The notes below the pieces were generated by a model. That model ran no database searches. It worked only from the letters and a program-made list of their open reading frames with translations, and was not told the DNA's origin. Below are positions 1 through 27,798 of a DNA stretch of 64,000 nt, in pieces. The position numbers and the translations under genes were made by a program. This DNA comes from Escherichia coli (lineage in GTDB: Bacteria > Pseudomonadota > Gammaproteobacteria > Enterobacterales > Enterobacteriaceae): the NCBI RefSeq assembly GCF_024298765.1, contig NZ_CP101210.1, one strand, 5' to 3'. Every line of letters begins with the position of its first letter. The first letter of the stretch is position 1.

Positions 1-28
1 TCTGAGCCATGATCAAACTCTTCAATTT
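1..28 (-). rRNA. rrsE: 16S rRNA, 5' terminal 28 nt only (gene continues beyond window start)
   Basis: Reverse complement of 1..28 is AAATTGAAGAGTTTGATCATGGCTCAGA, the mature 16S 5' end; same leader as the complete 16S at 38929..40470. Confidence 0.8.
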
Positions 29-360
29 AAAAGTTTGATGCTCAAAGAATTAAACTTCGTAATGAATTACGTGTTCACTCTTGAGACTTGGTATTCATTT
101 TTCGTCTTGCGACGTTAAGAATCCGTATCTTCGAGTGCCCACACAGATTGTCTGATAAATTGTTAAAGAGCAGTTGCGACGCGGCTTTCAGCTCACTGTC
201 GCGAGGTGGCGTATACTACGCTTTCCTCTTTCAGAGTCAACCCTGAATTTCAGGGTTTTTTCTCTTCAACCGAACCGGCTGTTTGTGTGAAGTGATTCAC
301 ATCCGCCGTGTCGATGGAGGCGCATTATAGGGAGTTCTCCGCAGGCCGCAATAGAAAAAT
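29..360 (-). promoter_or_regulatory. rrn operon leader and tandem P2/P1 promoter region with AT-rich UP element
   Basis: Leader 29..177 is near-identical to 40471..40619; minus strand reads CTCCCTATAATGCGCC (P1 -10) near 321..336 and an A/T-rich UP-like tract at 352..372. Confidence 0.6.
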
Positions 361-522
361 TGCAGAAAAATGACTGACTGCTGCATTCCCCAGCAAAACC
401 CCGCTTTATACCTTTTTACGCACAGAGTTATCCACAATCATCAATGTAATTTCTGTATTTTTCCCACGGCAACCACTGTCAAAATTGTGATCACCATTGA
501 AAGAGAAAAATTCGCGAGCGTT

Positions 523-538
523 GCGCAAACGTTTTCGT
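523..538 (+). promoter_or_regulatory. PurR operator (PUR box) at the purHD promoter
   Basis: gcgcaaacgttttcgt matches the PurR 16-bp palindromic consensus (aCGCAAACGTTTnCgT) about 110 bp upstream of purH. Confidence 0.6.
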
Positions 539-575
539 TACAATGCGGGCGAAAAATAAGGATGCCCCGTTAGGG

Positions 576-613
576 GCGTTAGCTGAGTTTTTCGCGAAAA
601 ATTCAGCTAACGC
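576..613. other. 38-bp near-perfect palindrome in the purH 5' leader
   Basis: gcgttagctgagtttttcgcgaaaaattcagctaacgc is self-complementary except one mirrored mismatch; lies between the PUR box and the purH ATG. Confidence 0.5.
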
Positions 614-645
614 TCTCTGTAATAGTCAAATCCAGGGGATTTACC

Positions 646-2235
646 ATGCAACAACGTCGTCCAGTCCGCCGCGCTCTGCTCAGTGTTTCTGACAAAGCCG
701 GTATCGTCGAATTCGCCCAGGCACTTTCCGCACGCGGTGTGGAGCTGCTGTCTACAGGGGGCACTGCCCGTCTGTTAGCAGAAAAAGGTCTGCCGGTAAC
801 CGAAGTTTCCGATTACACCGGTTTCCCAGAGATGATGGATGGACGCGTGAAGACCCTGCATCCGAAAGTACATGGTGGCATTCTGGGTCGTCGCGGCCAG
901 GACGATGCCATTATGGAAGAACATCAGATCCAGCCTATCGATATGGTGGTTGTTAACCTGTATCCGTTCGCCCAGACCGTTGCCCGTGAAGGTTGCTCGC
1001 TGGAAGATGCGGTTGAGAACATCGATATCGGCGGCCCAACGATGGTGCGCTCTGCCGCCAAGAACCATAAAGATGTCGCCATCGTGGTGAAGAGCAGCGA
1101 CTACGACGCCATTATTAAAGAGATAGATGCCAATGAAGGCTCCCTGACTCTGGAAACTCGCTTTGACCTTGCCATTAAAGCCTTCGAACACACCGCCGCC
1201 TACGACAGCATGATTGCCAACTACTTCGGCAGCATGGTTCCGGCTTACCACGGTGAAAGCAAAGAAGCCGCCGGTCGCTTCCCACGCACGCTGAACCTGA
1301 ACTTCATTAAGAAGCAGGATATGCGTTACGGCGAGAACAGCCACCAGCAGGCTGCCTTCTATATAGAAGAGAATGTGAAAGAAGCCTCCGTTGCTACCGC
1401 AACCCAGGTTCAGGGTAAAGCCCTCTCTTATAACAACATCGCCGATACCGATGCGGCGCTGGAGTGCGTGAAAGAGTTCGCCGAGCCGGCATGTGTGATT
1501 GTGAAGCACGCCAACCCTTGCGGCGTGGCTATCGGCCATTCCATTCTTGATGCTTACGATCGCGCGTACAAAACCGACCCAACCTCCGCGTTCGGCGGCA
1601 TTATCGCCTTTAACCGCGAGCTGGATGCGGAAACCGCACAGGCCATCATTTCTCGTCAGTTTGTTGAAGTGATCATTGCGCCATCCGCCAGCGAAGAAGC
1701 CCTGAAAATCACCGCCGCCAAACAGAACGTGCGCGTCCTGACCTGCGGTCAGTGGGGCGAGCGTGTTCCGGGCCTTGATTTCAAACGCGTGAACGGCGGT
1801 CTGCTGGTTCAGGATCGAGACCTGGGGATGGTCGGTGCAGAAGAACTGCGCGTCGTCACCAAACGTCAGCCGACCGAACAGGAACTGCGTGATGCGCTGT
1901 TCTGCTGGAAAGTGGCGAAGTTCGTGAAATCCAATGCTATCGTCTATGCCAAAAACAATATGACCATCGGGATTGGCGCGGGCCAGATGAGCCGCGTGTA
2001 CTCCGCAAAAATCGCCGGTATTAAAGCTGCCGATGAAGGTCTGGAAGTGAAAGGTTCCTCGATGGCTTCTGACGCGTTCTTCCCGTTCCGCGACGGTATT
2101 GATGCCGCCGCCGCTGCGGGCGTGACCTGCGTAATCCAGCCTGGCGGTTCTATCCGTGATGACGAAGTGATTGCCGCCGCCGACGAGCACGGTATTGCAA
2201 TGCTCTTCACCGACATGCGCCACTTCCGCCATTAA
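646..2235 (+). CDS. purH: Bifunctional AICAR transformylase / IMP cyclohydrolase
   Basis: 529-aa ORF; N-terminus [27 protein letters not shown] typical of PurH; followed 11 bp later by purD. Confidence 0.97.
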
Positions 2236-2246
2236 TGGAGCAATAG

Positions 2247-3536
2247 ATGAAAGTATTAGTGATTGGTAACGGCGGGCGCGAGCACGCGCTGGCCTGGAAA
2301 GCGGCCCAGTCGCCGCTGGTTGAAACTGTTTTTGTTGCTCCGGGTAACGCAGGCACTGCGCTGGAGCCTGCACTGCAAAACGTCGCTATCGGCGTAACCG
2401 ATATCCCGGCGCTGCTGGATTTCGCGCAAAACGAAAAGATCGATCTAACCATCGTCGGCCCGGAAGCGCCGCTGGTGAAAGGCGTGGTGGATACCTTCCG
2501 CGCCGCCGGGCTGAAAATCTTCGGCCCAACCGCAGGTGCCGCGCAGCTGGAAGGCTCGAAAGCGTTTACCAAGGATTTCCTGGCCCGCCATCAGATCCCT
2601 ACGGCGGAATACCAGAACTTCACCGAGGTAGAACCTGCGCTGGCGTATCTGCGTGAGAAAGGCGCGCCAATCGTCATTAAAGCTGACGGTCTGGCTGCCG
2701 GGAAAGGCGTTATCGTGGCGATGACGCAGGAAGAAGCGGAAGCGGCTGTTCACGATATGCTGGCGGGCAACGCTTTTGGCGACGCGGGGCATCGCATCGT
2801 TATCGAAGAGTTCCTCGACGGCGAAGAAGCGAGCTTTATCGTGATGGTGGACGGTGAGCATGTGCTGCCGATGGCCACCAGCCAGGATCACAAACGCGTA
2901 GGCGATAAAGATACCGGGCCGAACACCGGCGGGATGGGCGCTTACTCCCCTGCGCCAGTGGTGACCGATGAAGTTCATCAGCGCACGATGGAACGTATCA
3001 TCTGGCCAACCGTGAAAGGCATGGCGGCGGAAGGCAACACCTACACCGGTTTTCTCTACGCGGGCCTGATGATCGACAAACAGGGCAATCCGAAGGTTAT
3101 TGAATTTAACTGCCGCTTTGGCGATCCAGAAACCCAGCCGATTATGCTGCGCATGAAGTCCGATCTGGTTGAGCTTTGCCTGGCGGCCTGTGAAGGCAAG
3201 CTGGACGAGAAAACGTCCGAGTGGGATGAACGCGCTTCTCTCGGCGTGGTGATGGCTGCGGGTGGATATCCGGGCGATTACCACACCGGCGATGTGATCC
3301 ACGGCCTGCCGCTGGAAGAAGTGTCTGACGGCAAAGTGTTCCACGCGGGCACGAAACTGGCGGATGACGAGCAGGTAGTGACCAGCGGCGGGCGCGTACT
3401 GTGCGTCACCGCGCTGGGTCATACCGTGGCAGAAGCGCAGAAACGCGCTTATGCCTTAATGACCGATATCCATTGGGACGACTGCTTCTGCCGGAAAGAT
3501 ATCGGCTGGCGCGCTATCGAACGCGAGCAGAACTAA
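2247..3536 (+). CDS. purD: Phosphoribosylamine-glycine ligase (GAR synthetase)
   Basis: 429-aa ORF MKVLVIGNGGREHALAWK; ATP-grasp fold signature; operon with purH. Confidence 0.97.
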   Translation: MKVLVIGNGGREHALAWKAAQSPLVETVFVAPGNAGTALEPALQNVAIGVTDIPALLDFAQNEKIDLTIVGPEAPLVKGVVDTFRAAGLKIFGPTAGAAQLEGSKAFTKDFLARHQIPTAEYQNFTEVEPALAYLREKGAPIVIKADGLAAGKGVIVAMTQEEAEAAVHDMLAGNAFGDAGHRIVIEEFLDGEEASFIVMVDGEHVLPMATSQDHKRVGDKDTGPNTGGMGAYSPAPVVTDEVHQRTMERIIWPTVKGMAAEGNTYTGFLYAGLMIDKQGNPKVIEFNCRFGDPETQPIMLRMKSDLVELCLAACEGKLDEKTSEWDERASLGVVMAAGGYPGDYHTGDVIHGLPLEEVSDGKVFHAGTKLADDEQVVTSGGRVLCVTALGHTVAEAQKRAYALMTDIHWDDCFCRKDIGWRAIEREQN

Positions 3537-4858
3537 CGCGACAGTTTTGCCAAGAGCGTTTTGCGCGTGATCCCTAACTGACGGGCGGCTTCGGTTTTGT
3601 TGCCGCCCGTTTTCTCCAGTGCCGCAAGAATCACCTCTTTTTCGACTTCCACCAGCGGCTGAATATCCTGACTTTGTACCAGCGGGATCGGCGTACTCGC
3701 AATCGCCAGCGGCAGCTCGCGTTCGGAAATATATTCCCCGGTCAGCAGCACCACCGCCCGTTCCACCGTGTTTTCCAGTTCACGAATATTTCCCGGCCAG
3801 TCGTAGTGAATCAGCAGATCCATCGCCTGGGGCGTAAAACCTTTTACCGCCTTACGATTACGCTCGGCAAAGCGCTGAAGAAAATGGTTTGCCAGCAGAG
3901 GAATATCTTCCCGCCGCTGACGCAGCGACGGAACTTCAATCGCCACCACGTTCAGGCGATAGTAGAGATCCTGGCGAAAACGCCCGGCATTCACCTCTGC
4001 GGCAAGATCGCGATGAGTCGCCGCAATCAGCCGGACATCAACCGAGATGGTCTGGTTGCTGCCGACACGCTGAACTTCGCGCTCCTGAATCGCACGCAGC
4101 AGACGAACCTGCATCATCGGCGAGATATCGCCAATTTCATCGAGAAACAGCGTGCCGCCGTCCGCCTCAACAAAGCGCCCTTCCCGGCGTTTATCGGCTC
4201 CGGTAAACGCCCCTTTTTCGTGACCGAACAATTCAGATTCCAGCAAGGATTCGTTGAGTGCCGCACAGTTGAGCGTTACCAGTGGTTTTTCACTCCGTGC
4301 GCTACTGGCGTGAATCGCCCTTGCGACCAGCTCTTTACCGGTGCCGGAATCGCCGTGGATCAGCACCGTGGCTTCCGATGGCGCGACGAGGGCGATTTCA
4401 CTGAGCAGGTGTTGCATCGCCGGGCTTTTACCGACCATACCGAACTGGCTGGCAGTCACCACAGGCGTTTCAGCATCAATACTGTGCGTATGTGCGAGCG
4501 CCTTTTCCAGCGTCGCCTGCAGGTTATCGAAATCCAGCGGCTTGATGAGATAATCCAGCGCCCCGGTTTTCAACGCTTCTACCGCCGTCTCGACGCTGGA
4601 GTACGCGGTCATAATCAGTACCGGAATCGCCGGATTTAACGCTTTGATCTCTTTTAGCGTGGCAATGCCGTCCATCTCTGCCATTCGCACATCGCAAAGC
4701 ACAAGATCAAAAACCTGTTCCCGCACCTGCTCCAGCGCCTGTCGCCCGCTGTTCGCCAGCGCGACGTTATAGCCCCAGCCGCGCAGCAAAGCCTGCAAAA
4801 TAGTGCAGTGGCTAATGTCATCATCCACCACCAGAATATCGATATTATCGTGCGTCAT
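3533..4858 (-). CDS. zraR: Sigma54-dependent response regulator (NtrC family)
   Basis: 441 aa; receiver domain, AAA+ sigma54 activator motifs ([14 protein letters not shown]), C-terminal HTH; 4-bp overlap with zraS. Confidence 0.95.
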
Positions 4859-6231
4859 CCTTGTGGGTCCTTACGCGTAATAGTGACCGGAAGCCAGAGG
4901 GTGAACGTTGCGCCTTTTCCCTCCTGGCTTACGACCTGAATTGTACCACCGTGTTGTTCAACAATATTATGCACGACCGCCAGCCCCAGTCCGGTGCCTT
5001 CGGCCTTCGTGGTGAAATACGGGGTGAAGATGGCTTCAAGCTGATCCGCCGCAATTCCCTTACCGCTGTCGGTAACGCTGATTTTTACGCCCGCGCCGCT
5101 TTCGCTGGCCGTCACGCTAATCACGCCATGCTGACCAATCGCCTGAATAGCGTTGAGATAGAGATTCAACAGGACCTGAGTCAGCCTGTCCGGATCGGCC
5201 TGAATTTCCGGTAATGTGTCGTTGGCGGTAAAGCGTAACTGGATCTCCCGGCTGTTTGCATCCTGGCTTACCAGCTGTAATGAGTGGCTAATCAGCGTGT
5301 TGAGTTCCACCGCCTGCAAAGCCAGATGCGTTGGCTTAACCAGTTCCAGCAACTCGCTTACCACGCGGTTTAAACGGTCAGCTTCTTTCGCCATCACCTG
5401 CGCCAGTTGATGCGCTTCTCCCCCTGCTGGCGCGCGTTCGGCAAAGTATTTCGCCAGCCCTTTAATCGAGGAAAGTGGGTTACGGATTTCGTGGGCAACG
5501 CCTGCCGCAAGATGCCCCAGTGCCACCAGCTTCTCTTTGCGCTTCATTTCATCCTGCAACAGCTGGCCCGAGCGCAGATATCGGCGATACCAGAAGAATG
5601 ACAACACGCTTGCCAGCAAGACCGTCGCCAGGGCGAAGAGGATAATCAGGGTGTTTCTCTGCTCACGATCTTCGGCACTCACAATGTTACTGGCGTCGAA
5701 AGCGATAAAAATTGCTTGTGGTGTCGCGGCATACTGCTGCATATGGCGCATCCGGTGCATTCCAGCAGCAAACATCGGTTGAAACTGGCGATAAATTTCC
5801 AGAACAGGCTCGCCGTCTGCGCTATCGATCCGCCGCCACGCTTCTTCATCTCCCGGATGTAACTGCTGCATTTCCTGCGGGGAATAAAGCTGTTTTCCCA
5901 CCATGCCGGAGTTGCTATGCATCACGATTGTTCCTTGTTCATCCGTGACCGCAAACCAACGTACACCAGGCTGCCCGGCCATTTCTTCCAGTAATGCCTG
6001 CTGCTGCGCATGATGCATGCGCATCCCCATGCCGACGCGCGAGCCGGATTCGAGAGCACGGATAAGTACACTGCCTTTTTCCAGCAGCGTTTGTCTGGCG
6101 GCTGCAGTCTCGCGCCCGTAATCGCGAATCACTGTCACCGCAAACAGCCCCACCAGCCCAACAATGACCACGGGGAGGATCGCGCTTAACCATTTAGCTA
6201 AGGAGTCTTTAGAACGTTGCATAAAACGCAT
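4855..6231 (-). CDS. zraS: Sensor histidine kinase of the zinc-responsive envelope stress two-component system
   Basis: 458-aa ORF; TM segments, H-box HEIRNPL, HATPase G-boxes; upstream of and overlapping zraR. Confidence 0.9.
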   Translation of the reverse strand: MRFMQRSKDSLAKWLSAILPVVIVGLVGLFAVTVIRDYGRETAAARQTLLEKGSVLIRALESGSRVGMGMRMHHAQQQALLEEMAGQPGVRWFAVTDEQGTIVMHSNSGMVGKQLYSPQEMQQLHPGDEEAWRRIDSADGEPVLEIYRQFQPMFAAGMHRMRHMQQYAATPQAIFIAFDASNIVSAEDREQRNTLIILFALATVLLASVLSFFWYRRYLRSGQLLQDEMKRKEKLVALGHLAAGVAHEIRNPLSSIKGLAKYFAERAPAGGEAHQLAQVMAKEADRLNRVVSELLELVKPTHLALQAVELNTLISHSLQLVSQDANSREIQLRFTANDTLPEIQADPDRLTQVLLNLYLNAIQAIGQHGVISVTASESGAGVKISVTDSGKGIAADQLEAIFTPYFTTKAEGTGLGLAVVHNIVEQHGGTIQVVSQEGKGATFTLWLPVTITRKDPQG

Positions 6232-6329
6232 CTTCTTCTTTGCCTGCTCATCCCTTTCTGACAGCAGAAATCATGCCATCTTTTATCAGCGCTTACCCTG
6301 CGCTGTAACACAAAGGCTTAAGTTTCAAT

Positions 6330-6375
6330 GAGTAAAAATGACTCGCTACCCGCAGCAGGCGAGTCATTTTTACTC
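6330..6375. promoter_or_regulatory. Pair of 17-bp inverted repeats (ZraR enhancer-like sites) in the zraP-zraS divergent region
   Basis: gagtaaaaatgactcgc, 12-bp spacer, then gcgagtcatttttactc: a perfect inverted repeat. Confidence 0.6.
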
Positions 6376-6417
6376 GTTTATCATGCCAGATTACCCGTCA
6401 TATCAGCGTTTCATCGT

Positions 6418-6434
6418 TGGCACGGAAGATGCAA
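6418..6434 (+). promoter_or_regulatory. Sigma54 (-24/-12) promoter of zraP
   Basis: TGGCACggaagaTGCA matches the TGGCAC-N5-TTGCA consensus about 35 bp upstream of the zraP ATG. Confidence 0.6.
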
Positions 6435-6468
6435 TACCCGAAGTAAGACAACCACTGGAGGATTAACC

Positions 6469-6894
6469 ATGAAACGGAACACGAAAATTGCCCTGGTAAT
6501 GATGGCGCTTTCAGCAATGGCGATGGGATCGACATCGGCATTTGCTCACGGCGGACACGGTATGTGGCAGCAAAATGCCGCGCCTTTGACCAGCGAACAA
6601 CAGACAGCGTGGCAGAAAATCCATAATGACTTTTACGCTCAAAGCAGCGCACTGCAACAGCAACTGGTGACGAAGCGTTATGAATACAACGCCCTGTTAG
6701 CCGCGAACCCACCGGATAGCAGCAAAATTAACGCGGTCGCCAAAGAGATGGAGAATTTGCACCAGTCGTTAGATGAATTACGGGTGAAACGAGATATTGC
6801 GATGGCTGAAGCGGGTATTCCGCGCGGTACCGGAATGGGCATGGGCTACGGCGGCTGCGGTGGTGGCAGTCATATGGGTATGGGCCACTGGTAA
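6469..6894 (+). CDS. zraP: Periplasmic zinc-binding envelope stress chaperone
   Basis: 141 aa starting MKRNTKIALVMMALSAMAMG (signal peptide), Gly/Met/His-rich C-terminus; track ORF 6328..6894 is extended upstream across the promoter. Confidence 0.92.
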   Translation: MKRNTKIALVMMALSAMAMGSTSAFAHGGHGMWQQNAAPLTSEQQTAWQKIHNDFYAQSSALQQQLVTKRYEYNALLAANPPDSSKINAVAKEMENLHQSLDELRVKRDIAMAEAGIPRGTGMGMGYGGCGGGSHMGMGHW

Positions 6895-6895
6895 A

Positions 6896-7597
6896 TCAGA
6901 ACGTTTTCTCGTTGGGTTGCCAGCGACAGAAATCAGAGTTTGCCACTAACAGTAATTGCGAACCTTCGGGCGCTTCCAGCCATGCCACGCTGACATCAAC
7001 AGAAGAGCGGCTCTGGCGGCGCTCGATATGCGCTATCGCCTGCGAATCTAAATCAGGTTTAATGGTTTGCCCTTCGCAGGTGGTCACGGTCTGTTCCATC
7101 GCATGCCAGCGCCCCTGGCGCAGCACGACTCTTCCCTGACGTAAGGCATCGCTAATCTGGCGGATCTGATCAGCACGATAACGGTATAAATCGATTTGGT
7201 CGTTAGAAAGCTGCTGCTTTTCCCCATCGGATTCACGTTGCATAAAGCTCAGATCGCCGCGATCGTCAAAACGCGCGCGAATGTTCACCGGCGGTTTGCT
7301 GTAAACATTGATATTGATGAGCGTAAGGTTATCGCCCTGCCAGCGATACTCTCGCGTGGTGGTATCGCCACTGCGCCACGGGCTAAACACGGCAAGCAGA
7401 TGCACATTATCGCCGCTGTCTTTTCGCCAGATGCGTACCGCGCCCTGGTCTTCAGCAAATCCACTGGCGGTAAAGGGAGGAAGTGAAGAGTTGTGGCTAC
7501 AGGCAGTGAGAAACAGCGCACCTGCCAGCATCAATGATCGACGCCAGAAAGACAAAAGGGGTGAAACCACCCCTTCGTTAAAACTGTTCACTGCCAC
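6896..7597 (-). CDS. yjaH: Conserved hypothetical protein (probable lipoprotein)
   Basis: ORF with hydrophobic N-terminus and Cys (LAGALFLTACSHN); synteny between zraP and hupA; track start is probably a GTG, exact start uncertain. Confidence 0.8.
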   Translation of the reverse strand: MAVNSFNEGVVSPLLSFWRRSLMLAGALFLTACSHNSSLPPFTASGFAEDQGAVRIWRKDSGDNVHLLAVFSPWRSGDTTTREYRWQGDNLTLININVYSKPPVNIRARFDDRGDLSFMQRESDGEKQQLSNDQIDLYRYRADQIRQISDALRQGRVVLRQGRWHAMEQTVTTCEGQTIKPDLDSQAIAHIERRQSRSSVDVSVAWLEAPEGSQLLLVANSDFCRWQPNEKTF

Positions 7598-7603
7598 GCA
7601 ATC

Positions 7604-7876
7604 TTACTTAACTGCGTCTTTCAGTGCCTTGCCAGAAACAAATGCCGGTACGTTAGCTGCGGCAATTTTGATTTCTTTACCGGTCTGCGGGTTGCGGCCA
7701 GTACGCTCAGCGCGGTGGTTCACTTTGAAGGTACCGAAACCAACCAGTTGTACAGCATCGCCTTCTTTCAGAGACTCAGTAATTGCAGCCAGAGTGGACT
7801 CCAGAGCAGCTTTAGCCTGGGTTTTGGACAGTTCTGCTTTCTCTGCAATTACATCAATCAGTTGAGTCTTGTTCAT
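7604..7876 (-). CDS. hupA: Nucleoid-associated protein HU alpha subunit
   Basis: 90 aa [73 protein letters not shown]. Confidence 0.98.
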
Positions 7877-7975
7877 AAGTTATCCTTACAATGTGTTTAT
7901 CGCTTGCTAAGCATCGAGTGCGACGGAAATGCCAGAATAGCACTCTCCTGCATACACGCACCGATAGCCACTTTT

Positions 7976-8012
7976 TTTCGCCCCCCAAATGTAGACCAGA
8001 CGGGGGGCGAAA
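7976..8012. other. GC-clamped stem-loop (tttcgcccccc / ggggggcgaaa) in the yjaG-hupA intergenic region
   Basis: 11-bp inverted repeat with a 15-nt loop, preceded by a T7 run on the plus strand. Confidence 0.5.
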
Positions 8013-8062
8013 GGGAAGACTCCAGGTACGACAAATCAGGCGTTAAATCACGTTTTCTGGTC

Positions 8063-8653
8063 TTATTGCTGAAAAATTATACCAATATTGCTCTCACCCG
8101 CCTCACGCAGGTCTGCCCTAAGGCCTTTTATCAGCTCGATATCGCGTTCTTCGCACTCAGCTAAAAGTCGGAATATTTCCCACTGAATGTCCCATTCTTG
8201 CTCTACAGCTGGGTTTTCTTTGAGCTCTTCATCGCTCATTTCGCGACCAGCCTGAGTCATTTCCAGCATCGCAACGGTCGTGATGGAGGTCTTACTCACT
8301 TCCACCGCGTGTTCGAGCGTTTCACCACTCAAACGCGAATGGACCAGTTCACTTAACGCCACGCAGGCATCGATTGCCGGATAAACGCCGTACAGATCGA
8401 AATCGTCGGCTGAAGGAATCGCTTCTTCAAATTTCTCCAGTTGGCTGTCGAAATTTACTTTTGCGTCTTTGACGGTCAGCGTTTCCCAGATGAGATCGAG
8501 AATACGGCGGTAAATTTGCCCATCACCAAAACCAGTTTGCTGACAGAATACGGCGTAATTGGGGTACATGCGTTCGCATAAGCAGGCCATAAAAGTGACG
8601 TGCTGCCAGCTTTCCAGGCGCTCCAGACGCAGATGAATTGGGTTTTGTAACAT
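8063..8653 (-). CDS. yjaG: DUF416-family conserved protein
   Basis: 196-aa ORF in conserved position between hupA and nfi. Confidence 0.88.
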   Translation of the reverse strand: MLQNPIHLRLERLESWQHVTFMACLCERMYPNYAVFCQQTGFGDGQIYRRILDLIWETLTVKDAKVNFDSQLEKFEEAIPSADDFDLYGVYPAIDACVALSELVHSRLSGETLEHAVEVSKTSITTVAMLEMTQAGREMSDEELKENPAVEQEWDIQWEIFRLLAECEERDIELIKGLRADLREAGESNIGIIFQQ

Positions 8654-8695
8654 GTTGAGTTCTCAAATACGGAAATTATCCGCAGTTTACCTGAA

Positions 8696-9367
8696 TTAGG
8701 GCTGATTTGCTGTATAGCGCACGAACGCCGGACGTTCCGAGGCCACCGCGTCCGCCCAGCGCGTTGGCTCCGGCAGACGATAGCCTTTCATGCAGCGTTG
8801 TACCCACGCCAGCGCGCTGTCTACGCTGACCCGATGGCCGGTAGCGATAAACAACGGGTTACAGCGCGCTTTGCTGCGCCAGACCCAGGCCAGCTGCTCG
8901 CCTTTATCCATCAGCGGTGCCAGCGCGCCCGGTTCACTGGAGAGCGGTTCGAATTTACCGCAGAGCCGTTTTTTCGCCACGCCTATCGTTGGCACATCCA
9001 CCAGCAAACCAAAGTGGCTGGCGACGCCAAGACGGCGAGGATGCGAGATCCCGTGACCATCGACAAACACTAAATCCGGCTTTTGCGACAGCATCTCCCA
9101 CGCTGCCAGCAGCGCAGGATATTCGCGGAAGGAGAGAAAACCTGGAATGTAAGGCATGGTGGTGGCGATGCGGGCCACTTTATACTCCACCAGCTCAAGC
9201 GAGGGGTATTTCAGCAGCACCATCGCCGCTCGCGTCACTTCTCCGCCCTGCTCAAATCCGACATCGGCTCCGGCGATCAGATCCGGCGGATCTTTATCGA
9301 GTCGATCCTCGCGGATCACAGAAGAAGCCAGTTCGATTTGTTGAGCGCGTAATGACGCGAGATCCAT
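8696..9367 (-). CDS. nfi: Endonuclease V (deoxyinosine 3' endonuclease)
   Basis: 223 aa [23 protein letters not shown]; RBS aaggag upstream. Confidence 0.95.
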
Positions 9368-9379
9368 AATCGCTCCTTA

Positions 9380-9523
9380 GAGCCTGGTCCACCAGGCGTA
9401 ATTGTTGAAGGCAGTTTGAGGCCGGACAGCGCGGAAAAACCGGAGCGTACACGTAGTACGTGAGGATTTTGAGCACTGCCCGGCCTCAAAATGGCAAATA
9501 AAATAGCCTGATGGACCAGGCTC
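9380..9523. mobile_element. 144-bp MITE-like palindromic element with 18-bp terminal inverted repeats, flanked by TTA direct repeats
   Basis: Left TIR gagcctggtccaccaggc (9380..9397) vs right TIR reverse complement gagcctggtccatcaggc (9506..9523); inner IR ttgaggccgg/ccggcctcaa; central perfect palindrome cacgtagtacgtg; TTA at 9377..9379 and 9524..9526. Confidence 0.6.
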
Positions 9524-10588
9524 TTAGCGGTGATACTGTTCAGATAACCGATGCACTGCCTCCACAAACACGCCAGCATGTTCTGGCGGCACATCCTGAT
9601 GAATGCCGTGACCAAGGTTAAAGACATGACCTTCACCGTGACCGAAACCTGCAAGTATAGTCGCTACTTCTTCTTCAATGCGGGCTGGCGGCGCGTACAG
9701 CATCGACGGATCCATATTGCCCTGCAACGCGACTTTATTGCCCACGCGACGGCGCGCATCGGCGATGTCCGTTGTCCAGTCGAGGCCCAGCGCATCGCAA
9801 CCGGTTTCTGCCATGGCTTCCAGCCACTGTCCGCCGCCTTTGGTAAACAGCGTGACCGGTACGCGGCGACCGTCGTTTTCACGCAGTAAACCATCAACAA
9901 TTTTATGCATGTAATAAAGCGAGAACTGTTGATAATCGCGCCCGGTAAGCACGCCGCCCCAGGTGTCGAAAATCATCACTGCCTGAGCACCGGCTTTAAT
10001 CTGCGCATTCAGATACAAAGTGACGCTTTTCGCCAGTTTATCGAGTAGCGCGTGCAGCGCCTGCGGATCGGCATACATCATTTTTTTGATCACGGTGAAG
10101 GCTTTGCTGCTGCCGCCTTCCACCATATAGGTCGCCAGCGTCCACGGGCTGCCGGAAAAACCAATCAGCGGCACTTCGCCTTTCAGTTCGCGACGAATGG
10201 TACGCACCGCGTTCATCACGTAACCCAGCTCATCTTCCGGGTCCGGAATTGGCAGTTTATCGACGTCGGCTTTGCAGGTGACTGGCGAGGTAAAACGCGG
10301 ACCTTCTCCGGCTTCAAAATAGAGCCCTAACCCCATCGCGTCCGGCACGGTGAGGATATCGGAAAAGAGGATCGCCGCATCCAGCGGGTAGCGACGCAGC
10401 GGTTGCAAAGTCACTTCGCACGCCAGCTCGGCGTTTTTGCACAGCGACATAAAATCGCCCGCCTGGGCGCGCGTGGCTTTATATTCCGGTAGATAGCGAC
10501 CCGCCTGGCGCATCATCCATACTGGAGTGACATCAACGGGCTGGCGCAGCAGCGCCCGCAGATAACGATCGTTTTTAAGTTCGGTCAT
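9524..10588 (-). CDS. hemE: Uroporphyrinogen decarboxylase
   Basis: 354 aa [36 protein letters not shown]. Confidence 0.97.
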
Positions 10589-10627
10589 TTTGGCTGTTCC
10601 TTAGTGCGTCAGGCGGTCAGTGTATCA

Positions 10628-11401
10628 TCACTCATACTCTGCCCGACACATCGCCACCGTATCTTCTATCAGACGGCGCGCTACGGTGCCGGGCGGCGGG
10701 AGTAACGGCAAATCGTCATAGCGATACCAGTTCGCCTCGAGCAATTCTTTCGGGTCGATCACGATGTCGCCGCTGTCATATTCCGCCATAAACGCGGTCA
10801 TTAAAGACTGAGGAAACGGCCACGGCTGGGAAGTCACATAACGCAAGTTTTTAACTTTAATTCCGCTCTCTTCCATCACTTCCCGCGCGACCGCCTGCTC
10901 GAGGGTTTCGCCCACTTCGACGAATCCGGCAAGTACCGTATGGACACCGTTGCGATGGCGGGTATGCTGGGCAAGGAGGATCGAATCATCGCGACGGATG
11001 GCAACAATAATGCAGGGGGCGATTTGCGGGTAGTAACGCTCACGGCAATGGCTGCACAGCATCGCCCATTCGGTTTTGCTTGGATACATTTCATGACCGC
11101 AGTAACCACAGTATTTATGCGATCGGTAAAACTCCGCCAGTTGCACGCCACGTCCGGCCAGTTGAAACAGCCCAACATCGAGATCAATGACCTGACGTAC
11201 CGACCCCATATCGTGACGACGCTGCTGTTGTATTAACCAAACAGGTTCCCCCTGCCATTCGCCGATTTGTAGTGCGCGCTGACCCACAAGATCGAAATTT
11301 GCCGCTTCGCCATATGGCAATTCTCCCTTCGGCAACCATAATTTTTGTTCATGGCTGACGACCCACCAGCCGTGATCTAATTTTTCAATTATACGATCCA
11401 T
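10628..11401 (-). CDS. nudC: NADH pyrophosphatase (Nudix hydrolase)
   Basis: 257 aa; Nudix box ([22 protein letters not shown]), zinc-ribbon Cys motifs. Confidence 0.95.
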
Positions 11402-11495
11402 AGCTCTTGCACTACCTTTGCATCACTGGCATGTTTAACATGGTTTTTACATTTCTCACTGAGCAGTTTTTGAATACAAACTTGCGGAGTCAATC

Positions 11496-11972
11496 ATGCT
11501 TAACCAGCTCGATAACCTGACGGAGCGCGTCAGAGGAAGTAACAAACTGGTTGATCGCTGGCTACATGTACGTAAGCATCTGCTCGTGGCTTACTACAAT
11601 CTGGTTGGCATTAAGCCTGGCAAAGAATCGTACATGAGGCTAAACGAAAAAGCCCTTGATGATTTTTGTCAGAGCCTGGTCGATTACTTGTCTGCCGGGC
11701 ATTTCAGTATTTATGAGCGCATTCTTCATAAGCTGGAAGGCAACGGGCAACTCGCGCGCGCCGCGAAGATTTGGCCGCAACTCGAAGCCAATACCCAACA
11801 GATTATGGATTACTACGATTCCAGCCTGGAAACCGCCATCGATCATGATAATTACCTTGAGTTTCAACAGGTTTTATCTGACATCGGCGAGGCGCTGGAA
11901 GCGCGCTTTGTGCTGGAAGATAAGCTGATTCTGCTGGTGCTTGACGCCGCCCGCGTCAAACATCCTGCTTGA
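11496..11972 (+). CDS. rsd: Regulator of sigma D (anti-sigma70 factor)
   Basis: 158 aa MLNQLDNLTERVRGSNKLVDRWLHVRKHLLVAYYNLVG. Confidence 0.95.
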   Translation: MLNQLDNLTERVRGSNKLVDRWLHVRKHLLVAYYNLVGIKPGKESYMRLNEKALDDFCQSLVDYLSAGHFSIYERILHKLEGNGQLARAAKIWPQLEANTQQIMDYYDSSLETAIDHDNYLEFQQVLSDIGEALEARFVLEDKLILLVLDAARVKHPA

Positions 11973-12009
11973 GTTCTGCGCTGTTAACGCGTAATTTACA
12001 TTCAACGCC

Positions 12010-14099
<2,090 letters not shown>

Positions 14100-14100
<1 letters not shown>

Positions 14101-14735
14101 TGTATCAGCCTGATTTTCCTCCTGTACCTTTTCGTTTAGGACTGTACCCGGTGGTGGACAGCGTACAGTGGATCGAACGTCTGTTGGATGCAGGCGTGCG
14201 TACTCTCCAGCTACGCATCAAAGATCGGCGCGATGAAGAGGTGGAAGCCGATGTCGTGGCGGCAATTGCGCTGGGCCGCCGCTATAACGCGCGATTGTTT
14301 ATCAACGATTACTGGCGGCTGGCGATCAAGCATCAGGCATATGGCGTCCATCTGGGGCAGGAAGATTTGCAAGCCACCGATCTCAGCGCCATCCGCGCGG
14401 CTGGTCTGCGGCTGGGCGTTTCGACACATGATGATATGGAAATCGACGTCGCGCTGGCAGCACGTCCTTCTTATATCGCGCTGGGACATGTGTTCCCGAC
14501 GCAAACCAAACAGATGCCTTCTGCACCGCAGGGGCTGGAACAGCTGGCACGGCATGTTGAGCGCCTGGCGGATTATCCCACCGTGGCGATTGGCGGTATC
14601 AGTCTGCCGCGCGCGCCAGCGGTAATGGCGACGGGTGTCGGCAGTATCGCCGTTGTCAGCGCCATTACTCAAGCCGCAGACTGGCGTTTGGCAACGGCAC
14701 AGTTGCTGGAAATTGCAGGAGTTGGCGATGAATGA
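14100..14735 (+). CDS. thiE: Thiamine-phosphate synthase
   Basis: 211 aa from the ATG overlapping the thiC stop (track ORF starts one codon earlier at GTG). Confidence 0.93.
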
Positions 14736-15483
14736 CCGTGACTTTATGCGTTATAGCCGCCAAATCCTGCTCGACGATATCGCTCTTGACGGGCAGCAAA
14801 AACTGCTCGACAGCCAGGTGCTGATTATCGGTCTTGGCGGGCTGGGTACACCTGCTGCGCTATACCTGGCGGGCGCTGGCGTCGGGACGCTGGTACTGGC
14901 AGATGACGACGATGTGCATTTAAGCAATCTGCAACGACAAATCCTCTTTACCACTGAAGATATCGATCGCCCGAAATCGCAGGTCAGCCATCAGCGACTG
15001 ACACAGTTGAATCCCGATATTCAACTGACAGCATTACAACAACGGTTAACGGGTGAGGCGTTAAAAGATGCGGTTGCACAAGCCGATGTGGTGCTCGACT
15101 GTACCGACAATATGGCGACTCGCCAGGAGATTAATGCCGCCTGCGTGGCACTCAACACACCGCTTATCACCGCCAGCGCGGTCGGATTTGGCGGTCAGTT
15201 GATGGTACTGACGCCGCCCTGGGAGCAGGGGTGTTACCGCTGCCTGTGGCCAGATAACCAGGAGCCAGAACGCAACTGCCGCACGGCGGGCGTGGTTGGC
15301 CCGGTGGTCGGGGTTATGGGCACTTTGCAGGCACTGGAAGCCATTAAGTTATTAAGCGGTATAGAGACGCCTGCGGGAGAACTCCGACTGTTCGACGGTA
15401 AGTCTAGCCAGTGGCGCAGCCTGGCGTTGCGCCGCGCCAGTGGTTGCCCGGTATGCGGAGGAAGCAATGCAGATCCTGTTTAA
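14728..15483 (+). CDS. thiF: ThiS adenylyltransferase (E1-like)
   Basis: 251 aa from [15 protein letters not shown]; Rossmann GLGGLG motif; CxxC pair; track ORF extended upstream. Confidence 0.93.
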
Positions 15484-15667
15484 CGATCAACCGATGCAGT
15501 GCGCCGCCGGGCAAACTGTTCACGAACTACTGGAGCAACTCGACCAACGACAAGCGGGCGCGGCTCTGGCGATTAATCAGCAAATCGTCCCGCGTGATCA
15601 ATGGGCGCAACATATCGTGCAGGATGGCGACCAGATCCTGCTTTTTCAGGTTATTGCAGGGGGTTGA
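15467..15667 (+). CDS. thiS: Sulfur carrier protein ThiS
   Basis: 66 aa [12 protein letters not shown]...ending GG; overlaps thiF 3' end by 17 bp. Confidence 0.93.
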
Positions 15668-15668
15668 G

Positions 15669-16439
15669 ATGTTACGTATTGCGGACAAAACGTTTGATTC
15701 ACATCTGTTTACCGGCACCGGGAAATTCGCTTCTTCACAACTGATGGTGGAGGCGATCCGCGCTTCCGGCAGCCAGCTGGTGACGCTGGCGATGAAACGT
15801 GTCGACTTGCGCCAGCACAACGACGCTATCCTCGAACCGCTTATCGCGGCGGGTGTGACCCTGCTGCCGAATACTTCCGGGGCGAAAACAGCGGAAGAAG
15901 CCATTTTCGCCGCCCATCTGGCACGTGAAGCATTAGGCACAAACTGGCTAAAATTAGAGATTCACCCTGACGCCCGCTGGCTGTTGCCCGATCCCATCGA
16001 AACCCTGAAAGCCGCCGAAACGCTGGTACAACAGGGATTTGTCGTGCTGCCTTACTGCGGGGCCGATCCGGTATTGTGTAAACGTCTGGAAGAAGTCGGC
16101 TGTGCAGCGGTGATGCCGCTCGGCGCGCCGATTGGCTCGAATCAGGGACTGGAAACCCGCGCCATGCTGGAGATTATTATCCAGCAGGCCACGGTTCCGG
16201 TGGTTGTCGATGCTGGCATCGGCGTTCCCAGCCATGCCGCGCAGGCGCTGGAAATGGGGGCCGACGCGGTGTTAGTGAATACGGCGATTGCCGTCGCGGA
16301 CGATCCCGTCAACATGGCGAAGGCATTTCGTCTGGCAGTAGAAGCAGGCCTGCTGGCACGGCAGTCCGGACCGGGCAGCCGCAGTCATTTTGCTCATGCC
16401 ACCAGCCCGCTGACCGGATTTCTGGAGGCATCGGCATGA
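15669..16439 (+). CDS. thiG: Thiazole synthase
   Basis: 256 aa from [20 protein letters not shown]. Confidence 0.95.
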
Positions 16440-17569
16440 AAACCTTCAGCGATCGCTGGCGACAACTGGACTGGGACAACATCCGCCTGCGTATCAACGG
16501 CAAAACGGCTGCTGACGTAGAGCGGGCGCTAAATGTCTCGCAACTCACCCGCGACGATATGATGGCGCTGTTATCGCCAGCCGCCAGTGGCTATCTGGAA
16601 CCACTGGCCCAACGGGCGCAGCGTCTGACCCGTCAGCGATTTGGCAACGTCGTCAGCTTCTACGTCCCGCTTTATCTTTCCAATCTTTGCGCTAACGACT
16701 GCACGTACTGCGGATTCTCTATGAGCAACCGCATCAAGCGCAAAACGCTGGATGAAGCGGATATTGCCAGGGAAAGCGCCGCTATACGGGAGATGGGCTT
16801 TGAACATCTGCTTTTAGTCACTGGTGAACATCAGGCGAAAGTGGGGATGGATTACTTTCGTCGTCATCTCCCTGCCCTGCGTGAACAGTTCTCTTCACTA
16901 CAGATGGAAGTACAGCCGCTGGCGGAGACGGAATACGCCGAGTTAAAGCAACTTGGTCTGGATGGCGTGATGGTTTATCAGGAGACATATCACGAGGCGA
17001 CTTATGCCCGCCATCATCTGAAAGGCAAAAAACAGGACTTCTTCTGGCGGCTGGAAACGCCGGATCGGCTGGGCCGTGCGGGGATTGATAAGATAGGCCT
17101 CGGCGCGCTAATTGGCCTTTCCGACAGCTGGCGCGTTGACTGCTATATGGTTGCAGAACATTTGCTATGGCTGCAACAGCATTACTGGCAAAGCCGCTAC
17201 TCTATCTCCTTCCCACGCCTGCGTCCATGTACTGGCGGCATTGAGCCTGCGTCGATTATGGATGAACGCCAGTTAGTGCAAACCATCTGCGCCTTCCGGC
17301 TGCTTGCACCGGAGATTGAACTGTCACTCTCCACGCGGGAATCACCGTGGTTTCGCGATCGCGTTATTCCGCTGGCAATTAATAACGTCAGCGCTTTTTC
17401 GAAAACGCAGCCAGGTGGCTATGCCGACAATCACCCCGAGCTGGAACAGTTCTCACCGCACGACGATCGCAGACCGGAAGCGGTTGCTGCCGCGTTAACT
17501 GCTCAGGGTTTGCAGCCGGTATGGAAAGACTGGGACAGCTATCTGGGACGCGCCTCGCAAAGGCCATGA
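16436..17569 (+). CDS. thiH: 2-iminoacetate synthase (radical SAM tyrosine lyase)
   Basis: 377 aa; radical [11 protein letters not shown] motif. Confidence 0.95.
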
Positions 17570-17761
17570 GACAGAATGTAAGAACGTAAATTTATTCCGA
17601 GCCGCTACGGAAGATGAAAAACGCAAGGTTGTTGAAAGCGTTGTGTTTTTTTATGGTAGTCCCGTCAGCAGGAATGTTGTCCAGGGCGAAAAGCTTCTTC
17701 CTCGTTTCGCCCTGCCTTTCTTAAAAATTCCGTGAAGAATTGCCCTCTGAATAACACCCAT

Positions 17762-17790
17762 AAAAAAACCCGCCGAAGCGGGTTTTTACG
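17762..17790 (-). terminator. Intrinsic terminator downstream of rpoC (bidirectional geometry)
   Basis: Minus strand reads aaaaacccgcTTCGgcgggttttttt: GC stem, UUCG tetraloop, U-run; A-run on the other side. Confidence 0.8.
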
Positions 17791-17808
17791 TTATTTGCGG
17801 ATTAACGA

Positions 17809-20800: not shown

Positions 20801-22032
20801 ATATCCCAAACGACAGCTTCTTCGCGCTCAACCATTTTCTTCGCAGCTTTAATGGTGGTAGCAAGACCACGCAGTTCCAGCTTGCCGTAGATGAACGGTT
20901 TGAACAGCTCCAGCGCCATTTTCTTCGGCAGACCGCACTGATGCAGACGCAGGTATGGACCTACGGTGATTACAGAACGACCGGAGTAGTCAACACGCTT
21001 ACCGAGCAGGTTCTGACGGAAACGACCCTGTTTACCTTTGATCATGTCGGCCAAAGATTTCAGAGGACGCTTGTTAGAACCGGTGATCGCACGACCGCGA
21101 CGACCGTTATCCAGCAGGGCGTCTACCGCTTCCTGCAGCATACGTTTTTCGTTACGTACGATGATGTCCGGCGCAGCCAGATCCAGCAGACGTTTCAGAC
21201 GGTTGTTACGGTTAATGACGCGACGATACAGATCGTTCAGGTCAGAAGTCGCGAAACGACCACCATCCAGCGGAACCAGCGGACGCAGATCTGGCGGCAG
21301 TACCGGCAGAACGGTCAGGATCATCCACTCTGGTTTGTTACCAGACTGAACGAACGCTTCCAGCAGTTTGATACGCTTGGTCAGCTTTTTACGCTTGGTT
21401 TCGGAGTTGGTTTCGTTCAGCTCTTCACGCAGCTGTTCGCACTCTTGCTCCAGATCCATGCTCTTCAGCAGGGCCTGGATTGCTTCCGCACCCATTTTCG
21501 CGTCGAATTCGTCACCGAACTCTTCCAGCGCGTCCAGATACTGCTCTTCAGTCAGGATCTGCTGGCGTTCCAGGTTGGTCATACCGCCTTCAATAACCAC
21601 ATAGGATTCGAAGTACAGTACGCGTTCGATATCGCGCAGCGGCATATCGAGCAGCAGGCCGATACGGGACGGCAGCGATTTCAGGAACCAGATGTGCGCA
21701 GTCGGGGAAGCCAGTTCGATGTGGCCCATACGCTCACGGCGTACTTTAGTCTGGGTCACTTCAACGCCGCACTTCTCACAGATGACACCACGGTGTTTCA
21801 GGCGCTTGTACTTACCGCACAGGCACTCGTAATCTTTTACCGGCCCAAAGATACGGGCGCAGAAAAGGCCGTCACGTTCTGGTTTGAACGTACGGTAGTT
21901 GATGGTTTCCGGCTTTTTAACTTCACCGAAAGACCATGAACGGATCATGTCTGGCGAAGCCAGAGCAATTTTGATCGCATCAAACTCTTCGGTTTTAGTC
22001 TGCGCTTTCAGAAACTTTAATAAATCTTTCAC
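17809..22032 (-). CDS. rpoC: DNA-directed RNA polymerase beta' subunit
   Basis: 1407 aa [64 protein letters not shown]. Confidence 0.99.
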
Positions 22033-22108
22033 GGATTTGCTCCCGTCGGAGTTAGCACAATCCGCTGCCGGGTTTTACCCCGACAGCAGTGACCTGTTTG
22101 AGCGAGAA

Positions 22109-26137: not shown

Positions 26138-26382
26138 AGGGTTCCTCAGCTCGCTGACAAGTCGACCCATCTGTCCATTGAGCGGACAGTTTGTGCAACA
26201 CTATTTTGTTGACCGGAAAATGGAACACTTTCCGCAATGCCTGTTGCTATCACGCTTAAACCATTTCATTGCGATTTACACAGAACGGACGTCCTGTCGC
26301 AGTATATTAAGTCGTCGATAGAAACAAGCATTGAAAGGCACAGCAGTAGTCAAACAGTGTGAAACGCTACTGGCGCCTTACA

Positions 26383-26440: not shown

Positions 26441-26456
26441 AACCGGAAGGGTTGGC

Positions 26457-26822
<366 letters not shown>

Positions 26823-27790: not shown

Positions 27791-27798
27791 TAAAGGCA

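What the first reader, a model, noticed from the sequence alone, without database searches (positions are those of the whole stretch)
1..177. Direct repeat of the rrn 16S 5' end and leader, about 40 kb apart in the same orientation
Positions 1..177 and 40443..40619 are near-identical and both on the minus strand. The window therefore spans the interval between two co-oriented rrn operons, a known substrate for large duplications and deletions that would cover rpoBC, the ribosomal protein operons and the thi operon. Only the leaders are inside the window, but the full operon homology extends beyond it.
Basis: seen in the sequence. Interest (0 to 1): 0.2.

Follow-up and report, generated by a model that had tools for sequence, protein, structure and literature searches.

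The report
Two co-oriented ribosomal RNA operons
The repeat is the shared start of two E. coli ribosomal RNA operons (rrnE and rrnB) that lie 40 kb apart and point the same way, a textbook arrangement long known to let the block between them, which includes the RNA polymerase genes, be duplicated or moved.

Summary
Window 1-174 equals 40443-40616 exactly; 175 and 176 differ and 177 matches. Shuffled windows give at most 17 nt. Both copies are minus-strand: 28 nt of 16S rRNA plus a 146-nt leader with boxA and one strand of the pre-16S processing stem.

The 174 nt is a truncation by the window edge. The window is an E. coli chromosome, 10 mismatches in 64 kb from strain 104. The left copy is rrnE, whose body lies outside the window. 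In strain 104, rrnE matches this rrnB for 5,049 uninterrupted bases.

The recombination reading is right and already known (Anderson & Roth 1981, as cited in papers read here; Kacar 2017; socru 2020).
- Chicken isolate GPEC1042, 10 mismatches in the ~54 kb of the window compared, carries the predicted tandem duplication with the same 40,442-bp period.
- K-12 CV601gfp also carries a duplication.
- 19 of 5,426 genomes have the interval missing from its native site, so it must sit elsewhere. In UTI89 and UM146 it sits at tufA.

Simple deletion should be lethal, because rpoBC, nusG, secE and murB lie inside. This is an ordinary, known feature of low interest.

The parts
1..28 (-). First 28 nt of the 16S rRNA of the left operon (rrnE). 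The rest of the operon lies beyond the window start.
   Evidence: In register with 40443-40470, the 5' end of the Rfam SSU hit 38929-40470. In strain 104 the 16S continues leftwards for 1,542 nt, followed by tRNA-Glu, 23S, 5S and yjaB.
29..174 (-). 146-nt leader shared with rrnB. It contains boxA (160-172, TGCTCTTTAACAA), a boxC-like TGTGTGGG (138-145), and the 5' strand of the pre-16S processing stem (116-174).
   Evidence: Exact identity and motif positions. The leader nt mapping to 116-174 / 40558-40616 pair with 38851-38924 at -63.8 kcal/mol, against -30.6 +/- 4.3 for shuffles. The repeat finder also reports this inverted repeat (I1/I2). The boxA/boxC names and the RNase III role come from established rrn literature.
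175..205 (-). rrnE-specific boxB-type hairpin just upstream of boxA. Identity with rrnB ends here.
   Evidence: Mismatches begin at 175. The segment 173-205 folds at -13.5 kcal/mol (z -2.5). The rrnB counterpart 40615-40645 has a different sequence and also forms a hairpin, at -12.5 kcal/mol.
213..240 (-). rrnE P2 promoter (TTGACT, 16 nt, TAGTAT).
   Evidence: Promoter scan. It aligns with rrnB P2.
324..351 (-). rrnE P1 promoter core (-35 TTGCGG, 16 nt, -10 TATAAT, GCGCC discriminator).
   Evidence: Read from the sequence and from the alignment with rrnB P1. The scan missed it because the -35 is weak.
175..35415 (.). Unique 35.2-kb interval between the two operons: purHD, zraRSP, yjaH, hupA, yjaG, nfi, hemE, nudC, rsd, thiCEFSGH, rpoCB, rplLJAK, nusG, secE, tufB, thrT-glyT-tyrU-thrU, coaA, birA and murB. 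This is the block that gets duplicated or moved.
   Evidence: Annotation of the near-identical strain 104 (window position = L001 position - 8000). Rfam TPP riboswitch and tRNAs.
35416..40616 (-). Full rrnB copy of the repeat: terminator-proximal 46 nt, 5S 35462-35577, 23S 35678-38583, tRNA-Glu 38771-38843, 16S 38929-40470 and leader 40471-40616.
   Evidence: Rfam. The alignment with rrnE of strain 104 shows homology from 35416 to 40616, with 5,049 uninterrupted identical bases at 35568-40616.
40443..40616 (-). Right copy of the part of the repeat that is visible inside the window.
38851..38924 (-). Spacer just 3' of 16S that pairs with the shared leader (3' strand of the pre-16S processing stem).
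   Evidence: Duplex prediction and the inverted repeat.
40652..40679 (-). rrnB P2 promoter (TTGACT, 16 nt, TATCAT).
   Evidence: The -10 is TATTAT in strain 104. GPEC1042 matches the window at 40654 and 40659.
40771..40798 (-). rrnB P1 promoter (TTGTCA, 16 nt, TATAAT).

Best explanation
Positions 1-177 are the promoter-proximal edge of the E. coli rrnE operon: 28 nt of 16S plus the 146-nt leader. They repeat the same part of rrnB 40,442 bp downstream.

The real repeat is the whole operon, about 5.2 kb, and it is cut to 174 nt by the window start. The identity stops sharply at boxA. Downstream of that point all rrn operons share the leader, which forms the pre-16S processing stem, and the rRNA genes. 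These are kept alike by function and by gene conversion. Upstream of it each operon has its own boxB hairpin and P2/P1 promoter region.

Because the two operons are direct repeats, unequal homologous exchange between rrnE on one sister chromosome and rrnB on the other has two possible outcomes. One is a tandem duplication of the 40.4-kb unit, with a hybrid operon joining murB to purH. The other is intrachromosomal excision of the interval, which survives only if the interval is re-inserted elsewhere.

Shown here: the repeat, its orientation, its true length, and both kinds of product in public assemblies. Inferred from literature: RecA dependence, rates, and selective value (for example tufB dosage). 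Nothing in the window says whether the source strain itself carries a rearrangement.
For: Identity and anatomy:
- The exact repeat.
- Rfam rRNA, tRNA and riboswitch hits.
- Gene order from the near-identical strain 104 (10 mismatches in 64 kb).
- rrnE of strain 104 against rrnB of the window shows 5,049 identical bases in a row.
- Promoters.
- Processing stem at -63.8 kcal/mol against -30.6 +/- 4.3 for shuffles.
- boxB hairpins that differ in sequence but both fold.
- The same 146-nt leader in rrnA and rrnC of ST648.
- GC skew is negative on the + strand across the window, so the minus-strand operons run with replication.

Recombination:
- A synthetic murB-rrn-purH junction is present whole in 7 records from 4 strains, out of 5,426 genomes.
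- GPEC1042 reads yjaB-rrn-[purH..murB]-rrn-[purH..murB]-rrn-murI. Its 16S ends lie at 4606656, 4647098 and 4687540, so the period is 40,442 twice. The two copies are identical over the 8,713 bp compared. The middle operon is rrnE-type at three 16S sites where rrnB of that strain differs.
- CV601gfp (K-12) reads murI-rrnB-..purH-rrn-murB..-rrnE-yjaA with period 41,488.
- The reciprocal junction metA-yjaB-rrn-murI-btuB is whole in 19 genomes.

Literature:
- PMC3107234: rrn duplications occur at up to 1e-2.
- PMC4444293: rrnE-to-rrnB gene conversion.
- PMC7478630 (socru): excision and translocation between direct rrn repeats.
Against: Nothing contradicts the identification. The limits are as follows.
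- The left operon's body and downstream flank are outside the window. 'rrnE' is inferred from purH linkage and from 5,417 of 5,425 genomes that carry window 1-8000 nearly whole.
- Public assemblies can be wrong around 5-kb repeats. socru flags 62 of 838 E. coli genomes as likely misassemblies, UTI89 and IAI39 among them.
- CV601gfp has many frameshifts and its record ends sit inside the duplicated copy.
- Rearranged genomes are rare: 4 strains with the duplication-type junction and 19 genomes with the excision-type junction, out of 5,426.
Confidence: 0.96

Rival explanations
1. The source genome itself already carries the tandem duplication. In that case the operon at the window start would be the hybrid rrnE/B operon, with murB rather than yjaB beyond it, as in GPEC1042.
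For: The window starts inside the operon, so its left flank is unseen. GPEC1042 differs from the window at 10 positions in the ~54 kb compared and has exactly this structure with the same 40,442-bp period.
Against: Only 2 strains of 5,426 genomes show a tandem duplication. The window carries private SNPs absent from GPEC1042, so it is a different isolate. Duplications of this kind are unstable (literature).
Confidence: 0.03
2. The repeat is an assembly or chimera artefact, with a stray rrn fragment joined to purH, rather than a genuine second operon.
For: None specific. rrn operons are classic sites of misjoins (socru).
Against: The purH-rrn linkage is present in 5,417 of 5,425 genomes. The rrnE-specific P1/P2 region at 175-351 is intact, with its own promoters.
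Confidence: 0.01
3. The identity is only a functional conservation signal (shared leader, processing stem, boxA) and has no practical consequence for genome structure.
For: The shared block coincides with functional RNA elements. 99.5% or more of complete genomes keep the standard arrangement at this locus.
Against: Duplication, excision/translocation and conversion products that use these very operons are seen in assemblies and in experiments (PMC5574714, PMC4444293). Functional conservation and recombination are not exclusive.
Confidence: 0.05

Closest known systems
rrnB-rrnE tandem duplication and amplification in E. coli and Salmonella (Anderson & Roth 1981 PNAS 78:3113, cited in PMC5574714 and PMC3107234; Hill et al. 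1977, glyT duplications, from my own memory)
   Same: The same two operons, the same direct orientation and the same ~40-kb interval carrying tufB, glyT and rpoBC. The predicted hybrid operon joining murB to purH is found in GPEC1042 and CV601gfp.
   Different: Nothing in kind. The period is 40,442 bp in this lineage and 41,488 bp in the K-12 derivative, largely because htrC (yjaZ) is absent between thiH and rpoC.
rrn-mediated excision and translocation of inter-rrn fragments (Salmonella Typhi arrangement types, PMC3107234; socru genome-structure typing, PMC7478630; Hill & Harnish 1982, from memory)
   Same: What I take to be socru's 'fragment 6' is this interval, inferred from the fragment order in the socru table. 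socru lists ST648 and WB61 with fragment 6 moved, inverted, next to fragment 2. My junction search finds 19 genomes with the interval gone from its native site.
   Different: In UTI89 and UM146 the interval sits at tufA, flanked by tuf genes and circularly permuted, not in another rrn operon. socru scores this as invalid, that is, a possible misassembly.
Concerted evolution and gene conversion among rrn operons (ER2796, PMC4444293; conversion rates, PMC8022953)
   Same: rrnB in the window and rrnE in the nearest genome are identical for 5,049 bp, as expected after conversion. ER2796 shows rrnE-to-rrnB conversion directly.
   Different: Here the conversion is inferred from the identity, not observed as an event.

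Membership tests
E. coli rrn operon (rrnE on the left, rrnB on the right) | 16S, 23S and 5S rRNA genes in that order on one strand | tested here: met
   For rrnB, the Rfam SSU, LSU and 5S hits are all on the minus strand at 35462-40470. For rrnE, only 16S nt 1-28 is in the window. The complete operon is seen in strain 104.
E. coli rrn operon (rrnE on the left, rrnB on the right) | tRNA-Glu in the 16S-23S spacer (the rrnB/C/E/G type) | tested here: met
   tRNA at 38771-38843, annotated tRNA-Glu in both operons of strain 104.
E. coli rrn operon (rrnE on the left, rrnB on the right) | Tandem P1 and P2 promoters, and a leader with boxB-boxA-boxC antitermination signals | tested here: met
   P2 at 213-240 and 40652-40679. 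P1 at 324-351 and 40771-40798. boxA at 160-172 / 40602-40614 and boxC-like at 138-145. boxB hairpins. Function was not assayed.
E. coli rrn operon (rrnE on the left, rrnB on the right) | Locus-specific flanks: purH upstream of rrnE; murI upstream and murB downstream of rrnB | tested here: met
   purH starts at window 647 on the + strand, diverging from the operon.
Recombination substrate for rrn-flanked tandem duplication | Long, near-identical repeats in direct orientation | tested here: met
   Both operons are on the minus strand. The homology is 5.2 kb, with 5,049 identical bases in a row against rrnE of the nearest genome.
Recombination substrate for rrn-flanked tandem duplication | Existence of the predicted join-point (hybrid operon between murB and purH) and of copies spaced by the repeat period | tested here: met
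   GPEC1042 has three operons spaced 40,442 bp apart. CV601gfp has a period of 41,488. Both rest on assemblies, not on reads.
Recombination substrate for rrn-flanked tandem duplication | RecA-dependent formation and loss; copy-number variation in the source strain | not testable with these tools
   This needs cultures, reads or qPCR. Only literature is available (PMC5574714, PMC3107234).

The most novel reading that the evidence does not exclude
The excised rrnB x rrnE product, a ~45-kb circle carrying rpoBC, rplKAJL, nusG, secE and one rrn operon, might be rescued through a second repeat family. Re-integration by tufB x tufA would move this essential block across oriC to the other replichore while keeping it co-directional with replication. 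The UTI89 and UM146 assemblies show exactly this structure: chiA-tuf-thrT..murB-rrn-purH..secE-tuf-fusA, with yjaA-rrn-murI left at the native site. socru scores UTI89 as invalid, and I found no paper holding UTI89, tufA and tufB together. If the structure is real and not an alternative path through the assembly graph, it is a two-repeat cut-and-paste route for a core gene block. It would concern those strains, not the window itself.
Probability: 0.3. Interest if true: 0.35.

Novelty: already known. Interest (0 to 1): 0.1.

Why it matters
The finding matters little as a discovery. It is the standard rrnB-rrnE arrangement of E. coli, and its recombination potential has been known since the late 1970s and early 1980s. 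It does have practical uses.
- The 40-kb interval is a place where copy number can silently vary, changing the dosage of tufB, rpoBC and r-protein genes.
- Short-read assemblies cannot resolve the structure here.
- Complete-genome records sometimes disagree here because of real rearrangement or misassembly.

The survey done here gives a rough rate for public complete genomes. About 0.04% carry the tandem duplication, and about 0.35% have the interval removed from its native site.

Tried and rejected
1. I looked for the relocated interval in ST648 by reading the rrnA, rrnC and tufA neighbourhoods. It was not at any of them. The socru table places it, inverted, next to fragment 2.

2. I wondered whether the window was GPEC1042 itself. 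It is not. The window has private SNPs at 5086, 11096, 34483, 35509, 35567 and 43446.

3. I wondered whether the rrnB P2 -10 TATCAT was a private lesion. It is not. GPEC1042 matches the window at both sites, so it is a natural polymorphism.

4. I tried to use tuf protein identities to tell a real tufA x tufB crossover from a misassembly in UTI89. Both scenarios predict the same hybrids, so this was uninformative.

5. The multi-flank junction query mixes event types. The murB-rrn-yieP class in IAI39 is an rrnC x rrnB event, not rrnB x rrnE. I therefore did not count those 11 genomes as products of this repeat pair.

6. A literature search for UTI89 + tufA + tufB found nothing.

7. One region request failed on a size limit, and one script failed on a missing file.

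Full report
**1. The observation**

The window contains one long direct repeat. Positions 1-174 and 40443-40616 are 100% identical, with a spacing of 40,442 bp. Extending to 177 adds two mismatches, at 175 and 176. Shuffled copies of the window never give an exact repeat longer than 17 nt. Rfam places a complete bacterial 16S rRNA at 38929-40470 on the minus strand.

**2. What the window is**

Megablast against 5,426 complete E. coli genomes finds window 1-8000 nearly whole in 5,417 of them. The window differs from strain 104 (NZ_CP029164.1) at 10 positions in 64 kb. That record's annotation gives the following order:
- to the left of the window: yjaB, then rrnE (5S, 23S, tRNA-Glu, 16S);
- inside the window: purHD, zraRSP, hupA, hemE, thiCEFSGH, rpoCB, rplLJAK, nusG, secE, tufB, four tRNAs, coaA, birA, murB;
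- then a complete rrnB (5S 35462-35577, 23S 35678-38583, tRNA-Glu 38771-38843, 16S 38929-40470);
- then murI, btuB, trmA, oxyR/oxyS, the arg genes and ppc.

The left copy is rrnE, cut by the window edge. The right copy is a whole rrnB.

The 174 nt is a truncated view of a repeat of about 5.2 kb. When rrnE of strain 104 is aligned with rrnB of the window, homology runs from 35416 to 40616. Positions 35568-40616 are identical for 5,049 bases in a row. GC skew of the + strand is negative throughout. The minus strand is therefore the leading strand, and both operons are transcribed in the direction of replication.

**3. Anatomy of the shared edge**

- The identity ends two bases upstream of boxA (TGCTCTTTAACAA, at 160-172 and 40602-40614).
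- A boxC-like TGTGTGGG lies at 138-145.
- The first 59 nt of the shared leader (116-174 / 40558-40616) pair with the spacer just after the 16S 3' end (38851-38924). The predicted energy is -63.8 kcal/mol, against -30.6 +/- 4.3 for shuffles (also seen as an inverted repeat). This is the long stem known as the RNase III processing site of pre-16S.
- Upstream of boxA the operons diverge to 57% identity. Each has its own boxB-type hairpin; the sequences differ but both fold.
- Each operon has its own promoters. rrnE has P2 at 213-240 (TTGACT/16/TAGTAT) and P1 at 324-351 (TTGCGG/16/TATAAT). rrnB has P2 at 40652-40679 (TTGACT/16/TATCAT) and P1 at 40771-40798 (TTGTCA/16/TATAAT).
- The same 146-nt leader is present in rrnA and rrnC of another strain.
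- The edge of identity is thus the edge of the part that all rrn operons share.

**4. Is the recombination potential real?**

The literature says yes.
- Kacar et al. [quoted passage not shown] They found the ~40-kb region duplicated or triplicated in 5 of 16 engineered strains.
- Matthews et al. (PMC3107234) quote rrn duplication frequencies of up to 1e-2, and describe tandem duplications and translocations of the small inter-rrn regions in Salmonella Typhi.
- The ER2796 genome paper (PMC4444293) documents gene conversion from rrnE into rrnB.
- Steinrueck & Guet (PMC5526668) list rrnB-rrnE as a repeat-flanked region holding 31 genes.
- socru (PMC7478630) types such arrangements across genomes.

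**5. A direct test in public genomes**

I built the join-point that a tandem duplication would create: murB side, then an rrn operon, then the purH side (window 32462-40616 followed by 175-3174). I searched it against 5,426 complete genomes. Normal genomes can cover at most 74% of it in one place. Seven records from four strains cover 100%.

*GPEC1042.* This chicken isolate (NZ_CM142795.1) differs from the window at 10 positions in the ~54 kb compared.
- Its order is yjaB-rrn-[purH..murB]-rrn-[purH..murB]-rrn-murI.
- Its 16S 5' ends lie at 4606656, 4647098 and 4687540, so the period is 40,442 bp twice, the same as in the window.
- The two copies are identical over the 8,713 bp compared.
- The middle operon carries the rrnE promoter side and the rrnB terminator side.
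- It is rrnE-type at three 16S positions where that strain's rrnB differs. This is what unequal exchange predicts.

*CV601gfp.* This K-12 derivative has the same structure with a period of 41,488 bp. However, the record's ends lie inside the second copy, and that part is full of frameshifts. Its quality is therefore doubtful.

**6. The reciprocal product**

A simple deletion would remove rpoB, rpoC, nusG, secE, murB, birA and coaA, and should be lethal (established knowledge). Even so, the deletion-type junction (metA-yjaB-rrn-murI-btuB) is present whole in 19 genomes. Three of them were followed further.

- *UTI89 (four records) and UM146.* The native site reads yjaB-yjaA-rrn-murI (UTI89). 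The interval sits at the tufA locus, circularly permuted: chiA-tuf-thrT-glyT-tyrU-thrU-coaA-birA-murB-rrn-purH ... rpoCB-rplLJAK-nusG-secE-tuf-fusA-rpsG-rpsL (for UTI89; for the chiA side in UM146). This is what excision by rrnB x rrnE followed by re-integration by tufB x tufA would give. It is equally an alternative path through the same repeat graph. socru marks UTI89 as invalid. The other UTI89 records have identical length. UM146 is closely similar to UTI89 here, with matching protein accessions in the interval. I cannot tell a real rearrangement from a misassembly.
- *ST648.* socru lists fragment 6 as moved, inverted, next to fragment 2, and scores this as valid.

A further query found murB joined through an rrn operon to the upstream flank of rrnA in 7 genomes and of rrnC in 4. 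The IAI39 case is an rrnC x rrnB event, not rrnB x rrnE. I therefore do not count these as products of this repeat pair.

**7. Verdict**

The feature is the standard rrnB-rrnE arrangement, and it is already known. The window alone cannot show whether the source strain carries a rearrangement. Interest is low.

Noticed in passing
L004 16793-49157, L008 1-12559, L009 7932-16934 (UTI89 NC_007946.1); L015 (UM146): In UTI89 and UM146 the whole rrnB-rrnE interval is absent from its native site. It sits instead between two tuf genes at the chiA/fusA (tufA) locus on the other side of oriC, circularly permuted, with a single rrn operon left between yjaA and murI. socru flags UTI89 as invalid. It could be a real two-step translocation or a misassembly.
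   Followed up: partly
window 40652-40659: The -10 hexamer of rrnB P2 is TATCAT in the window. GPEC1042 matches the window at 40654 and 40659. The hexamer is TATTAT in strain 104, and in rrnA and rrnC of ST648. This is a natural polymorphism in a strong rRNA promoter whose effect is unknown.
   Followed up: partly
window 35509 and 35567 (5S rRNA of rrnB); also 5086, 11096, 34483, 43446: The window carries substitutions absent from both of its nearest relatives, strain 104 and GPEC1042. Two of them are inside 5S rRNA. No genome of 5,426 has both 5S changes, and the best match is 160 of 161. All six are G:C to A:T. They may be private mutations or sequencing errors.
   Followed up: partly
window 17570-17808: The htrC (yjaZ) gene that lies between thiH and rpoC in the K-12 derivative CV601gfp (L007 36124-36663) is absent here. 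This accounts for most of the 1,046-bp difference between the repeat periods (40,442 against 41,488 bp).
   Followed up: partly
window 48892-51456: An MFS transporter gene and manD (D-mannonate dehydratase) lie between oxyR/oxyS (OxyS RNA at 48736-48845) and argH. In the K-12 derivative CV601gfp, argH and oxyR are adjacent (L017). This looks like a small strain-variable island.
   Followed up: no
L001 2451-3135 against L009 7932-9014 (outside the window, beyond its left end): yjaA, a marker gene used for E. coli phylogroup typing, lies between rrnE and yjaB in UTI89 and K-12. It is absent in strain 104, GPEC1042 and IAI39, so the window's lineage is yjaA-negative.
   Followed up: no
L012 13004-15157 (ST648 NZ_CP008697.1): The tufA locus of ST648 is annotated as two abutting partial tuf pseudogenes (975 + 1,179 bp) between bfd and fusA. 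This is a partial tandem tuf copy or a bad contig join.
   Followed up: no
NZ_CP006834.2 (APEC O2-211): hits H6 and H17: APEC O2-211 matches window 1-8000 and 40617-44000 at about 100%. In it, the purH side and the murI side of rrnB map to opposite strands at 0.49 Mb and 4.77 Mb. socru lists this strain as GS5.99, a valid inverted arrangement. rrnB is a rearrangement endpoint there too.
   Followed up: partly
L013, L014 (IAI39 NC_011750.1): IAI39 reads yieP-rrn-murB...purH-rrnE-yjaB. The ~225 kb normally found between rrnC and rrnB is elsewhere. socru scores this genome as invalid.
   Followed up: partly
NZ_CP043207.1, NZ_CP043209.1, NZ_CP043213.1: Three K-12-type records have neighbouring accession numbers. 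CV601gfp shows the duplication junction, while two mouse-gut isolates (PG20180052 and PG20180053) show the deletion-type junction. This suggests that the interval's arrangement varies within one strain family, or that these assemblies are unreliable at this locus.
   Followed up: no
window 26391-26452 and 38591-38690: There are two Rfam hits on the minus strand: 'P26' in the rplL-rpoB intergenic region, and 'StyR-44' just upstream of 23S in the rrnB spacer. Both sit where these families are usually found.
   Followed up: no
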